From Candidatus Doudnabacteria bacterium (GTDB lineage: Bacteria > Patescibacteriota > JABMPQ01 > JAGQLO01): 64,000 nucleotides of DNA. This document shows, in pieces, positions 20,444 to 26,458 of this stretch. The notes under the pieces were generated by a model. The model had not been told where the DNA came from, ran no database searches, and saw nothing but the letters and a program-made list of their open reading frames with translations. The DNA is taken from the NCBI GenBank assembly GCA_020429185.1, contig JAGQLO010000001.1, positions 1,723 to 65,722 on the forward strand, in the 5' to 3' direction. Both the position numbers and the translations under genes were made by a program. Within the stretch, counting starts at the first letter, position 1; the number at the start of each line of letters is the position of its first letter.

Positions 20444-20728
20444 TCAACCGTGTCGACGTGTAATGCGACCTTTCGTGAGATCGTACGGAGTAAACTCAAC
20501 CGTTACTCGATCTCCAGGCAAGACGCTGATGCGATACATCTTCATCTTCCCTGAGAGTGTCGCAAGAACCTCATGGTCGTTTACCAACTTCACTTTGCAA
20601 GAAGAGTTTGGAAGGACTTGCGTGATCGTTCCATCCATTTCGATGACGTCACGCCTTTTAGGCGCCGCTACCTGAGCATCGCCAGAATTCTTCTTCTTTT
20701 TCTTGCGCGGACCAGACCGTTGACCCAT
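20444..20728 (-). CDS. infA: Translation initiation factor IF-1 (lysine-rich N-terminal extension; the true start may be internal)
   Basis: S1-like IF-1 core (ITQVLPNS...KVKLVNDHEVLATLSGKMK...ISVLPGDRVTVEFTPYDLTKGRIT). Confidence 0.85.
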   Translation of the reverse strand: MGQRSGPRKKKKKNSGDAQVAAPKRRDVIEMDGTITQVLPNSSCKVKLVNDHEVLATLSGKMKMYRISVLPGDRVTVEFTPYDLTKGRITRRHG

Positions 20729-20821: not shown

Positions 20822-22681
20822 CTACTGTTCATCTTCCGCAGTGTCAAGCACAACATCCACCTTTCCAGGCACACGCGGCACATGCTCTACCCAAAACGGC
20901 CAAAATGCCACACGAGCGGCAGCAACGCCGTATTGATCAAAAAGCAAATGCTGCACTTCTTCAGCCGTTTTTCCCTGTAACTGAGCGGAAATTCCCTCTT
21001 CAGGAAGTAGAACAACGACGTCACGATCCATCTGCACATCAAGTTCAAGCACCTCTTCAGTGGTATCGTAAGAAGCTAACGAGAACGTCACCCCTGAAAA
21101 TGTCTTGTCGATAAATGCACGCCCTTCAGGTAGCCTTGGTTGCAACTGTGCAAAAACAGTAGACCGCAAATCCTCTTCTCGATAGGCCAATGTTCTTGCG
21201 GTTACCAACAACTCAAGCTCAAAATCTTCGCGTGCATCTCCCACATCTCCAGTAGAACGCACTTCTATTACATCCGTTCGCAGCGCCTCTTCAAGTACAG
21301 CCTCACCTTCAGCAACCTGCGCACGCAACGACTCAGCTGCAATCGTAACCGCCTCCTCCTTCATGATTGCCACCGCCGCATCCATGTCCTGCTGAGAGAT
21401 AATTCGCTCACCAATTCCAGCATTCGTCCCACCTGTAAACGGTGTGACGCTTTTTCCTGTCATCTTCTCTTGAATAGCAGGCGCCAAACCTGGAATGGTA
21501 AAGGATGTGGGTTCCATATTGTAGTCAGAACCAGGTTGATCAGCCTCCACCTCAACTGTAATCGTTGTCGGAATCAACTCTCCTTCATCACTTACGTCCA
21601 TGCCAGGCACGACAGCATGTTCAATCAGACGAAAGAGTGTTCCATCTTTTGCAAGAAACCGCGTCGTCGCCACGAGTGGTTGCGGAGCCGCAGAATAAGC
21701 GTTTGTAATCGTCACCTCTCCACGTGCCTTTGTTCCCTCTTCTGTTGTGACACCTGTAGCAGCAAAAGAGCGTTTCGGACTCACCTCTTCTACTGCAATA
21801 GGAACACCAGGCACGACACCCGTTGTTGCGTCCATAGCAGAAGCGGAGGCAGAAAGCTGGACGCGCAACTCTTCTTCAAAAGGCTCTCGCTGTGGCTGCA
21901 CAGTAACGGTCGCAGAGGGAAGAACCCACAACAACACACCTCCACCAACAAGGACAGCAATAACCAAGGCGGCAATAACGGCAAAACGTGTCATTCGTGG
22001 CAGCAACGAAACCTTCTGAGGAGCTGGAGAAGACCGACGTAGCACAGAGGCTGATTGCGCGTGTCGTACAGAATGATCTTTCTTTCGTGAATCTTCCCGC
22101 ACAACAAGTTTTTCTTCAGTGGGTTCCACGACGTCCACATCGGAAGCTTCGTATACTCCCTTACTCGAAGTTGCCACTACATCAGAAACAACTGGATCAG
22201 GCAGCGGCGACATTTCAGAAACAACTTCCTGCTGATCAGCCTCATCCAGATGACGCTCTTCCGCCTCATCAACTTCTTCCAGGTCTGAAGCATCGTCTTG
22301 TACCTCATCCGAAACAGCTTTCACGGGAATAGAACGCATCGTAAAATCACGCGGCACTTGTGCTTCCGACTGTTCGCCCACCTCATCAGGAGAAGGAGCC
22401 TGCTCTTCTTCCACGGTTGGATCTAGCTCTTCCGGAACTTCGCTTTGGGCCGTCAATCCAGCCTCAGTAGCAAGATGGCGAATAACCGGATCGGATGTAA
22501 CCAAAGAAAGCTGCAACCCAAGCTTTTGGGACTCACGCTGCAGCAGCTTTAGATTGACAAGGCTCTGCGCCAACATTGAACCTCGCGGTAAGACGAGCAC
22601 AACATCGTCAGACTCCGCATGACGAAACCGATCCACGATATCGGTTATCTCATCTTCGATTTCTGAGTAAAGAAGTTCCAT
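20822..22681 (-). CDS. Hypothetical single-pass membrane protein: STAS-like N-domain, acidic linker, TM, about 365-aa extracytoplasmic domain
   Basis: The N-terminal segment (DVVLVLPRGSMLAQS..LVNLKLLQRESQKLGLQLSLV..DPVIRHLATEAGL) follows the STAS/SpoIIAA hydrophobic pattern. A TM helix lies at about residues 230-252. The gene sits immediately downstream of ftsA. Confidence 0.4.
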   Translation of the reverse strand: MELLYSEIEDEITDIVDRFRHAESDDVVLVLPRGSMLAQSLVNLKLLQRESQKLGLQLSLVTSDPVIRHLATEAGLTAQSEVPEELDPTVEEEQAPSPDEVGEQSEAQVPRDFTMRSIPVKAVSDEVQDDASDLEEVDEAEERHLDEADQQEVVSEMSPLPDPVVSDVVATSSKGVYEASDVDVVEPTEEKLVVREDSRKKDHSVRHAQSASVLRRSSPAPQKVSLLPRMTRFAVIAALVIAVLVGGGVLLWVLPSATVTVQPQREPFEEELRVQLSASASAMDATTGVVPGVPIAVEEVSPKRSFAATGVTTEEGTKARGEVTITNAYSAAPQPLVATTRFLAKDGTLFRLIEHAVVPGMDVSDEGELIPTTITVEVEADQPGSDYNMEPTSFTIPGLAPAIQEKMTGKSVTPFTGGTNAGIGERIISQQDMDAAVAIMKEEAVTIAAESLRAQVAEGEAVLEEALRTDVIEVRSTGDVGDAREDFELELLVTARTLAYREEDLRSTVFAQLQPRLPEGRAFIDKTFSGVTFSLASYDTTEEVLELDVQMDRDVVVLLPEEGISAQLQGKTAEEVQHLLFDQYGVAAARVAFWPFWVEHVPRVPGKVDVVLDTAEDEQ

Positions 22682-22685
22682 ACGA

Positions 22686-24053
22686 TTACGCTGTTTGCAG
22701 AAGACGAACGGCTCGTCGCACTACAGAAGAAAATTCATCCGAAGGCAACAACACTTCCCGAATCGCCTGAGAGGCAAGTCCAAGTGGCGTCACATCCTCC
22801 TGTCCCACAAGAAGTCCCGTCGAGTCACTCATCAGCACCACATCTTGTGGAGACATAAAGTGAATGTTTGGGGGCCGCGAGAACGGAAGGCGCTCAACGA
22901 AGTCAGGATCCATTAACACTTCTTTCATTCCTGGAAGCTTGGAACCTCCACCACAAAGCAATACACGACTTGGCAGAGGTTCTGTCTTTGAAAACTCTTC
23001 CAGAGCAAGAGCAACTCCTTCACGCCAGACCGAAAGATCGCCATCTACTTCGCGTCGAACACGCTCCGCTGACGAAGAAGGCAACATGTTTTCTGAATAC
23101 TTGATTTTGGTCTCTTCAGCCTCTTCAAACGGAAGGTCAAGCGCCTGTGACACACGCCGGGTAAACGCACGCCCGCCTATACCAAACATTTTCGTGCCCT
23201 CAATGACCCCACCACGCACAACTGCGACATCCGTTGTGCCACCACCCACATCAATAAAAATTGCGGAAAACTCCAACTGCTCTCCAACTCCCACAGAAGT
23301 CGCCACCGCATACGGCTCCGCTGTAACGGAGAGAAGATCAAGATCGAGTTGCTCAGCAATGCTTTCTAATGCACCAATATGCACCAACGGTGCATACGCA
23401 TTAAAGATAGAAAGAGCGACATCCTTTCCCTGGAAACCAACGGGTTGTGTGACGCGATATCCGTCGATGCGCACATCCACCACCGAACCCGTAATCAATC
23501 GCACATCGATACCCTGCTGACCTGTTTCACGGACGAGTTGTTGCTTCACTCGCTCAAGTGCACGCCACTGCACCTTATGCACGATGTTCTTCAACTCGGC
23601 TGCATCAATCTTCTGTTCTGGCTTCAATCGTTCATAGCTCACCGTGGTCGTCATTCCTTTTACGAGTTCACCTGCCATCCCTAACACCACTTGAGTTGGA
23701 CGCACTCCTGCTCGCTCGGAAGCCTCAAAAATGGCGCGCTCACAAACCTGTACAACAGCAGCAATATCTCCAACGGCTCCCGCATGCATCGCCCCTAGCG
23801 GCTGCGCCGCGCGACCCGATCCAATCACAACTCCTTCACCTGTCTCTTCATCCACTTCAAAGACCAAAGCCTTTACGACTTCGGTTCCAATATCTAGCGC
23901 GAGATACGATCCGTTTACCGGACCGCTCCGCTTGAACTTTCCAAATAAGGACACAGAAGAATGACAACGAATTGCGAGTGAAGTGTAGCAAACAACACGC
24001 AACAACATCTCTGGATAAAATCGACAGAAGGCAAGAGATTTCTGATCGAACAC
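22686..24053 (-). CDS. ftsA: Cell division protein FtsA (actin-like ATPase). The N-terminal boundary is uncertain and the real start is probably downstream of 24053.
   Basis: LALDIGT phosphate-1 motif, a DVGGGTTDVAV phosphate-2 motif followed by AEETKIKY, and a C-terminal amphipathic tail. Confidence 0.7.
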   Translation of the reverse strand: MFDQKSLAFCRFYPEMLLRVVCYTSLAIRCHSSVSLFGKFKRSGPVNGSYLALDIGTEVVKALVFEVDEETGEGVVIGSGRAAQPLGAMHAGAVGDIAAVVQVCERAIFEASERAGVRPTQVVLGMAGELVKGMTTTVSYERLKPEQKIDAAELKNIVHKVQWRALERVKQQLVRETGQQGIDVRLITGSVVDVRIDGYRVTQPVGFQGKDVALSIFNAYAPLVHIGALESIAEQLDLDLLSVTAEPYAVATSVGVGEQLEFSAIFIDVGGGTTDVAVVRGGVIEGTKMFGIGGRAFTRRVSQALDLPFEEAEETKIKYSENMLPSSSAERVRREVDGDLSVWREGVALALEEFSKTEPLPSRVLLCGGGSKLPGMKEVLMDPDFVERLPFSRPPNIHFMSPQDVVLMSDSTGLLVGQEDVTPLGLASQAIREVLLPSDEFSSVVRRAVRLLQTA

Positions 24054-24610: not shown

Positions 24611-26458
24611 CTAGGAACGTGATGCCAAAACCTCTTTCGCCTTCTCTCCAACGTATGCCTTGATACGGCGAATACCGGCAGAACTCGCCTGTTCTTTTGA
24701 AATTACAAACGCTCCGATTTCAGAGGTGTTCTCGACATGAGGACCTCCACAGACCTCCACAGAAAAATCTCCTACAGAATAGACTTTCACCTGATCACCG
24801 TATTTGTCTTCAAACAACCCAAGCGCTCCCTTTGCTCGAGCCTCTTCGAGTGACAGGGTTTCCCATGTCACCGGAAGATCACGTTCAATCACGTCGTTGA
24901 TAATCCGCTCTACCTCTGCAATCTGCTCAGGTGTCATCTTGTCAGGATGTGAAAAGTCGAATCGAACACGCTCAGGAGTAATGTTGCTTCCTTTCTGCTC
25001 GACATGGTCTCCAAGTACGTCACGCAACACCTTATGTAGCAAATGAGTTGCCGTGTGTCCCATTCGTGTTTCTGGTGTGTCCTCCGAAAGTCCGCCCGCA
25101 AACTTCTGTGCTGCCCCCTCACGCGACTTCGACTGATGCTGTTCAACATTCTGCTGGAACTCCTCTTCATTCACGCCGAATCCCATTTTCTCCGCCTCTT
25201 CAAATGTAAGCTCCAATGGGAATCCGTAGGTTTGATACAAGTCAAACACAAGATCTCCAGGCAGCGTTGGCTGCTTTGCTGAGCCAGCGATCAAGTCACT
25301 TCCAGCCGTCTGAGCGTGTTGTTGTAACTTCTCAATTTCCTTCTTCAAATGACGCAACCCGTTGTCGAGCGTCTTCTCAAACTTTTCTTCTTCTTTTCGC
25401 AGCTCCTCCAAAATAACTTCGCGATGCTGCTCCAATTCCGGATACACCCCCTCATACACGCCAAAGAAGACTTCCACAACTTCCTTCGACACATTCACTT
25501 CTTCTGGAATTTGTAATTTCGCCGCAAACCGAACAGCACGACGAATCAAACGTCGTAGAATGTAACCTTGGTCGACATTACTTGGACGAACCCCATCCCC
25601 CAACATAAACATGGCTGTCCGCAGGTGATCTGTCACCACACGCACCGCTTCTTCATCTTCCACTAGAGCTAGTTCCTTCACCTTGTTGTACGCATCGGCA
25701 AACAAATCCGTCTCAAAAATATGCGTTCGCCCCTGCAACGCCATCGCAATGCGCTCCAACCCCATTCCCGTGTCGACATTTTTTTGTGCGAGCGGCTTGA
25801 ACGAACCATCGTCAAGCTTTTCGTACTGCATGAACACGTTGTTCCAAATTTCCACAAAACGACCCGCCTCCGTGTCTGGACCATCGCCATTCAACGGCCC
25901 ATTACCACGATCATAAAAAATCTCCGTGTCCGGACCACATGGACCCGTCTTTCCTGGAGGTCCCCACCAGTTATCTTCTTTCCCCAGATAGAAAATGTGT
26001 GACTCTGGAACACCAAGAGATTTCCAAATCGAAGCCGATTCCTCATCACGCGGAGCGTCATTATCACCAGCAAACACAGTGACTGCCAGCTTTTCGATCG
26101 GAATATTGAGATACGCAGGAGACGTCAAAAACTCAAATGACCAACGAATCGACTCTTCCTTAAAGTAATCTCCCAACGACCAGTTTCCCAACATCTCGAA
26201 AAACGTGTCGTGCGTGTCATCTCCAACCTCTTCAATATCCTGAGTACGCACGCACTTCTGCACGTTGGCGAGTCGTTTTCCATCTGGATGTGCCTCTCCC
26301 ATCAGGTATGGCACCAATGGATGCATGCCAGCTGTCGTAAACAACACGGAAGGGTCATTTTCTGGGACAAGTGAAGCCGAAGCAATAATGGCGTGGCCAC
26401 GCTCTTTAAAGAAGTCAAGATACTTCTGTCGAATGTCTTTTGCGGAAAGTGATGTCAT
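24611..26458 (-). CDS. alaS: Alanine--tRNA ligase, short form (615 aa) lacking the C-terminal C-Ala/oligomerisation domain
   Basis: AlaRS catalytic core (KYLDFFKERGH ... FTTAGM) plus the editing-domain HTATHLLH motif. Confidence 0.9.
   Translation of the reverse strand: MTSLSAKDIRQKYLDFFKERGHAIIASASLVPENDPSVLFTTAGMHPLVPYLMGEAHPDGKRLANVQKCVRTQDIEEVGDDTHDTFFEMLGNWSLGDYFKEESIRWSFEFLTSPAYLNIPIEKLAVTVFAGDNDAPRDEESASIWKSLGVPESHIFYLGKEDNWWGPPGKTGPCGPDTEIFYDRGNGPLNGDGPDTEAGRFVEIWNNVFMQYEKLDDGSFKPLAQKNVDTGMGLERIAMALQGRTHIFETDLFADAYNKVKELALVEDEEAVRVVTDHLRTAMFMLGDGVRPSNVDQGYILRRLIRRAVRFAAKLQIPEEVNVSKEVVEVFFGVYEGVYPELEQHREVILEELRKEEEKFEKTLDNGLRHLKKEIEKLQQHAQTAGSDLIAGSAKQPTLPGDLVFDLYQTYGFPLELTFEEAEKMGFGVNEEEFQQNVEQHQSKSREGAAQKFAGGLSEDTPETRMGHTATHLLHKVLRDVLGDHVEQKGSNITPERVRFDFSHPDKMTPEQIAEVERIINDVIERDLPVTWETLSLEEARAKGALGLFEDKYGDQVKVYSVGDFSVEVCGGPHVENTSEIGAFVISKEQASSAGIRRIKAYVGEKAKEVLASRS

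What the first reader, a model, noticed from the sequence alone, without database searches (positions are those of the whole stretch)
20822..24053. ftsA is followed by a STAS-like/TM/large-ectodomain protein rather than ftsZ
The FtsA homologue has the DVGGGTTDVAV motif. It is immediately followed (4-bp gap) by a 619-aa single-pass membrane protein. The cytoplasmic N-terminus of this protein follows the hydrophobic pattern of STAS/anti-sigma-antagonist domains. It has an about 365-aa extracytoplasmic C-terminal domain with no recognisable motif. No ftsZ is present in the window. This could be an unrecognised divisome component tethered by FtsA, or a partner-switching-type regulator of division. 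The STAS call is from pattern recognition only.
Basis: inference. Interest (0 to 1): 0.55.

Follow-up and report, generated by a model that had tools for sequence, protein, structure and literature searches.

The report
FtsA-like ATPase paired with baseplate-like membrane protein
The gene called ftsA is not the cell-division FtsA but a separate actin-like ATPase, always paired in ultrasmall (CPR) bacteria, Chloroflexota and a few other lineages with a membrane protein whose outer part resembles a phage baseplate wedge protein; the pair's function is unknown.

Summary
The two genes are real. A 422-aa FtsA-like ATPase (22686-23954, minus strand; the 455-aa ORF is probably over-extended) lies 4 bp upstream of a 619-aa single-pass membrane protein (20822-22681). 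The window has no ftsZ.

The ATPase is not canonical FtsA. It scores 107.7 bits on TIGR01174, below the 175.85 cut-off. In 80 genome loci the family splits in two. Canonical FtsA genes are followed by ftsZ. This subfamily is followed by a homologue of the 619-aa protein and never by ftsZ, usually within mnmA-alaS-[pair]-ruvX-mltG or infA-rpsM. It occurs in CPR, Chloroflexota, Dormibacterota and a Halanaerobiales genome.

Published Saccharibacteria data show a separate essential ftsA-ftsZ pair, and fitness loss for the likely orthologues of this pair.

Best reading: an uncharacterised trans-membrane module resembling MreB-RodZ, PilM-PilN or GspL. A divisome or partner-switching role is unsupported.

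The parts
22686..23954 (-). FtsA/PilM-family actin-like ATPase, subfamily 'FtsAL', 422 aa. The maximal ORF runs to 24053.
   Evidence: ORF. The GTG start at 23954 fits homologue lengths and alignment. PF14450 scores 65 bits, and TIGR01174 scores 107.7, below its 175.85 cut-off. It is 100% identical to an NCBI 'PilM' of Candidatus Doudnabacteria. It scores 711 bits on the subfamily HMM, against 80-111 bits for canonical FtsA.
23229..23252 (-). Phosphate-2 ATP-binding motif DVGGGTTD (residues 235-242).
   Evidence: Invariant in alignment A3, together with DIGT (residues 21-24) and GGGS (residues 335-338). Sequence read.
22689..22736 (-). C-terminal basic amphipathic segment of FtsAL (residues 407-422, EFSSVVRRAVRLLQTA). 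A candidate membrane-targeting or docking helix.
   Evidence: Eisenberg hydrophobic moment is 0.84-0.88 over 11-residue windows. The LRRAVRxxQ motif is conserved. The function is inferred by analogy with FtsA and MinD.
22682..22685 (-). 4-bp spacer between the two genes, suggesting an operon or translational coupling.
   Evidence: The median spacer is 10 bp in 33 loci.
20822..22681 (-). 619-aa bitopic membrane protein ('M619' family).
   Evidence: The family has 15,657 clusters at 50% identity. The AF2 model has mean pLDDT 79.
22427..22681 (-). Cytoplasmic N-domain, residues 1-85, with a STAS-like beta-alpha-beta-alpha-beta-alpha-beta fold.
22001..22426 (-). Disordered acidic linker, residues 86-227.
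   Evidence: pLDDT is below 50. Net charge is -21 over residues 89-227. Length is variable among homologues.
21926..21997 (-). Transmembrane helix, residues 229-252.
   Evidence: AF2 helix. The hydrophobic run FAVIAALVIAVLVGGGVLLWVL follows a basic stretch.
20825..21925 (-). Extracytoplasmic Baseplate J / wedge-protein-like ectodomain, residues 253-619.
24611..26458 (-). alaS, the conserved upstream neighbour (context).
20444..20728 (-). infA, the conserved downstream neighbour in non-Saccharibacteria CPR (context).

Best explanation
The two genes encode a conserved two-protein trans-membrane module, not ftsA plus a divisome add-on.

**Components**
- Component 1 (FtsAL) is an ATP-binding actin-fold protein of the FtsA/PilM clade. 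It forms its own paralogous subfamily.
- Component 2 is a bitopic membrane protein with four parts: a STAS-like cytoplasmic domain, a flexible acidic tether, one TM helix, and an ectodomain homologous to contractile-tail baseplate wedge (Baseplate J/gp6/gp47) proteins.

**Proposed mechanism (inferred)**
- FtsAL sits at the inner face of the membrane through its C-terminal basic amphipathic helix, and binds the cytoplasmic STAS-like domain of its partner.
- Nucleotide-dependent self-association of FtsAL then clusters or positions the baseplate-like ectodomains in the cell envelope.
- This is the logic of MreB-RodZ and PilM-PilN. The fused variant corresponds to GspL.
- The output is most likely an envelope or cell-wall-associated assembly, not FtsZ tethering.

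**Shown**
- Subfamily identity.
- Invariant pairing and synteny.
- Domain folds.
- Existence of a fusion.

**Inferred**
- Which surfaces touch.
- Membrane binding by the C-terminal helix.
- Oligomerisation.
- The envelope role.
For: 1. The FtsA family splits cleanly in two. Subfamily HMM scores are 228-761 bits for genes followed by an M619 homologue. They are 80-111 bits for genes followed by ftsZ.
2. The block mnmA-alaS-FtsAL-M619-(ruvX-mltG or infA-rpsM) is conserved across CPR, Chloroflexota, Dormibacterota and Natroniella.
3. The median intergenic gap is 10 bp.
4. FtsAL is 50-58% identical across phyla, with all ATP motifs invariant. Its partner is only about 25% identical, as expected for a surface-exposed protein.
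5. A Rosetta-stone fusion exists. In L087 and L090, alaS is followed directly by one gene whose N-terminal ~250 aa match the FtsAL profile. hhalign gives probability 98.2%, E 4.5e-14, over 222 columns. This region lacks the 1C and 2B inserts and the ATP motifs, and is joined to the TM and ectodomain.
6. Every FtsAL-adjacent partner has the N-domain. Four of four short paralogues without the N-domain sit after dnaE with no FtsAL nearby.
8. In Southlakia epibionticum the same block is SEML1_0657 to SEML1_0653. A separate essential ftsA-ftsZ pair (SEML1_0174/0175) and a separate pilus pilM (SEML1_0104) also exist. SEML1_0655 is called essential after T0, and SEML1_0656 shows a growth defect (PMC10633639 Tables S1 and S2).
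Against: - No direct evidence of binding, polymerisation or localisation exists.
- The Tn-seq depletion could be partly polar on ruvX, which has the same NE/ES/ES pattern. Neighbouring genes decline similarly.
- One locus (L003) has a partner with the N-domain but no adjacent FtsAL.
- In two Nanosyncoccus loci the genes are 3-4 kb apart.
- The envelope role rests only on the ectodomain location and on neighbours (mltG, sortase). Those neighbours are also linked to alaS-ruvX in bacteria lacking the pair.
Confidence: 0.6

Rival explanations
1. First reader's view. This is the organism's FtsA, with ftsZ simply elsewhere in the genome, and the 619-aa protein is a divisome component tethered by it.
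For: - FtsA is the best-scoring named family: PF14450 at 65 bits and TIGR01174 at 107.7 bits.
- PDB profile hits are led by FtsA, with 7q6f at E 2e-21.
- The C-terminal amphipathic helix resembles that of FtsA.
- I could not inspect the rest of this Doudnabacteria genome for a second ftsA.
Against: - The score is below the FtsA equivalog cut-off.
- Identity to canonical FtsA is only about 25-28%.
- The subfamily was never next to ftsZ in about 40 loci, while all canonical FtsA genes with downstream sequence available were.
- Southlakia has a canonical ftsA-ftsZ pair that is depleted from T0. The likely orthologue of this gene tolerates 47-65 insertions.
- The fused variant has lost its ATP motifs.
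Confidence: 0.1
2. It is a type IV pilus (or related fibre) alignment pair. FtsAL would act as PilM and the membrane protein as a PilN-like partner.
For: - NCBI names it 'pilus assembly protein PilM'.
- PF11104 scores 29.1 bits against a cut-off of 27.
- An actin-like ATPase with a bitopic partner, and a GspL-like fused form, is exactly the PilM/PilN/GspL pattern.
- CPR rely heavily on type IV pili (PMC10633639).
Against: - TIGR01175 pilM scores 34.9 bits against a cut-off of 133.
- No pilN, pilO, pilB, pilC or pilin gene appears in any of the conserved neighbourhoods.
- Southlakia has its own pilM-pilN-like locus (SEML1_0104-0106), called GD/ES or ES from T0 with 0-4 insertions. The likely orthologues here are called NE at T0, with 25 and 47 insertions.
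- The partner has a folded STAS-like domain and a baseplate-like ectodomain, not the short N-terminal peptide and ferredoxin-like domain that define PilN (domain layout of PilN from my own knowledge).
Confidence: 0.1
3. It is a STAS-based partner-switching regulator. The conserved serine on the N-domain would be phosphorylated to control binding of the ATPase or of another partner.
For: - The fold is STAS-like.
- Ser40 is 87% conserved at the N-cap of helix 2. From my own knowledge of SpoIIAA, this has the same spacing from the preceding strand as its phospho-serine; I did not make a structural superposition.
Against: - No Pfam STAS hit appears even at E<=1.
- No SpoIIAB/RsbW-type kinase or PP2C phosphatase lies in the conserved block.
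- The domain is dispensable in the fused lineage.
- A helix N-cap serine can be purely structural.
Confidence: 0.1
4. It is a remnant or component of a prophage, tailocin or extracellular contractile injection system.
For: - Baseplate_J and PHROG 6 hits.
Against: - No sheath, tube, spike or other wedge genes are nearby.
- The neighbours are alaS, infA, ribosomal genes, ruvX and mltG in every lineage.
- The protein is TM-anchored with a cytoplasmic domain.
- It has 15,657 clusters and is flagged as a core, Patescibacteria-enriched family.
- There are no PADLOC hits.
Confidence: 0.03

Closest known systems
MreB-RodZ
   Same: An actin-fold ATPase at the inner face of the membrane is paired with a bitopic protein. 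That protein has a small folded cytoplasmic domain, a linker, one TM helix and an extracytoplasmic domain. This is the same overall architecture and presumably the same coupling logic.
   Different: The ATPase belongs to the FtsA/PilM clade, not MreB (MreB Pfam 22.1 bits, below its cut-off of 27). The cytoplasmic domain is STAS-like, not a helix-turn-helix. The ectodomain is Baseplate J-like.
PilM-PilN and the fused form GspL (type IV pilus / type II secretion)
   Same: A FtsA-like ATPase is paired with a single-pass partner. A natural fused variant has a degenerate actin-like domain, no longer nucleotide-binding, joined to the TM and outer domain. This parallels GspL versus PilM plus PilN.
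   Different: There are no pilus or secretion genes nearby. The pilM model score is far below its cut-off. The partner's domains are unrelated to PilN. Saccharibacteria have a separate pilM locus.
Canonical FtsA (TIGR01174), with its membrane partners FtsN/FtsQ
   Same: It is the closest named sequence family. The ATP motifs are intact, an insert sits at the position of subdomain 1C, and there is a C-terminal amphipathic helix.
   Different: Identity is about 25-28%. The score is below the equivalog cut-off. It is never adjacent to ftsZ. It co-exists with a true ftsA-ftsZ pair in Southlakia.
Baseplate J / gp6 / Mu gp47 / P2 gpJ / Pvc11-Afp11 wedge proteins
   Different: Here the domain is anchored to the cytoplasmic membrane of a cell, fused to a cytoplasmic domain, and encoded among housekeeping genes. 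No other tail components are present.
STAS / SpoIIAA anti-sigma-factor antagonists and SLC26 STAS domains
   Different: There is no detectable sequence homology. The domain is shorter (85 aa, lacking the first hairpin strand and the last helix). No partner kinase or phosphatase is in the neighbourhood.

Membership tests
Canonical cell-division FtsA (NCBIfam TIGR01174 equivalog) | Score at or above the curated equivalog cut-off | tested here: not met
   107.7 bits against a cut-off of 175.85. PRK09472 scores 57 against 409.
Canonical cell-division FtsA (NCBIfam TIGR01174 equivalog) | Gene immediately upstream of ftsZ / within the dcw cluster | tested here: not met
   No ftsZ in the window. About 40 subfamily loci have no ftsZ within 10 kb, whereas every canonical FtsA locus with downstream sequence has ftsZ next to it.
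Canonical cell-division FtsA (NCBIfam TIGR01174 equivalog) | Actin-fold ATP-binding motifs (DxG[TS], DxGGGTTD, GGG[ST]) | tested here: met
   Invariant in 12 diverse members.
Canonical cell-division FtsA (NCBIfam TIGR01174 equivalog) | SHS2 / 1C subdomain inserted in subdomain 1A | tested here: inconclusive
   The TIGR01174 alignment runs through the insert. UniProt relatives of the Southlakia protein are named 'SHS2 domain-containing'. However, Pfam SHS2_FTSA gave no hit at E<=1, and no structure was predicted for this protein.
Canonical cell-division FtsA (NCBIfam TIGR01174 equivalog) | C-terminal amphipathic membrane-targeting helix | tested here: inconclusive
   Hydrophobic moment is 0.84-0.88 and the segment is basic. 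Membrane binding was not tested.
Canonical cell-division FtsA (NCBIfam TIGR01174 equivalog) | Binds the FtsZ C-terminal peptide through subdomain 2B | not testable with these tools
   Needs binding assays or complex prediction.
Type IV pilus PilM (TIGR01175 / PF11104) | Score at or above the curated cut-off | tested here: inconclusive
   PF11104 scores 29.1 against a cut-off of 27, so it is marginally met. TIGR01175 scores 34.9 against 133, so it is not met.
Type IV pilus PilM (TIGR01175 / PF11104) | Encoded with pilN/pilO and other pilus genes | tested here: not met
   None in the window's neighbourhood or in the related loci.
Baseplate_J (PF04865) wedge proteins | Profile match above the gathering score, and matching fold | tested here: met
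Baseplate_J (PF04865) wedge proteins | Part of a contractile-tail, tailocin, eCIS or T6SS gene cluster | tested here: not met
   Housekeeping neighbours in all loci.
STAS / SpoIIAA-like | Sequence-profile match to STAS families | tested here: not met
   No STAS family at E<=1 in Pfam. No PDB sequence hit for residues 1-95.
STAS / SpoIIAA-like | STAS fold | tested here: met
STAS / SpoIIAA-like | Cognate kinase/phosphatase partner and phosphorylated serine | not tested
   None in the conserved neighbourhood. Whole genomes were not searched. Ser40 is conserved in 87% of members, but phosphorylation is unknown.

The most novel reading that the evidence does not exclude
FtsAL and its partner constitute a third, ancient actin-like membrane system, alongside FtsA-divisome and PilM-pilus. 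It would be universal in CPR and shared with Chloroflexota and Dormibacterota. It would assemble a baseplate-wedge-like ring or lattice on the outer face of the cytoplasmic membrane. This would make it a cellular relative, possibly the ancestor, of the contractile-tail baseplate wedge, with a role of its own in envelope organisation.
Probability: 0.3. Interest if true: 0.85.

Novelty: new variant of a known kind. Interest (0 to 1): 0.6.

Why it matters
- CPR/Patescibacteria make up a large share of bacterial diversity, and most of their conserved 'core, CPR-enriched' genes have no known function.
- This pair is one of them. It has 15,657 clusters at 50% identity and is conserved next to alaS across several phyla.
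- In the one genetically tractable model it is fitness-relevant, with polarity not excluded.
- Recognising that the gene is not FtsA or PilM prevents wrong inferences about CPR division and piliation from annotations.
- The pair also places a phage-baseplate fold in a housekeeping cellular context. That bears on where contractile-tail baseplate proteins came from.
- Genetics exist in Southlakia and Nanosynbacter, so the function is directly testable.

Tried and rejected
- **N-domain as a remnant of half an actin fold.** I rejected this. hhalign of a 157-sequence N-domain profile against the FtsAL and fusion profiles gave probabilities of 1% or less.
- **Single-sequence tests of the fusion.** hmmsearch gave 11 bits and hhalign gave 6.6% probability. 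Both were inconclusive. Only the profile built from 13 homologues settled it.
- **Genome scan with the membrane-protein alignment.** It failed because no stretch was conserved enough. I used the ATPase alignment instead.
- **afdb50 fold search.** Not available, so there is no UniProt-wide taxonomic survey of the fold.
- **Defence-system check.** No PADLOC hits.
- **Literature searches.** 'Baseplate J' with FtsA found no paper. 'Baseplate J' with Patescibacteria, and CPR divisome or dcw terms, found nothing describing this pair.
- **Canonical ftsA-ftsZ in this Doudnabacteria genome.** I could not check this.
- **Promoter and terminator scan.** It gave no more sites than shuffled sequence.
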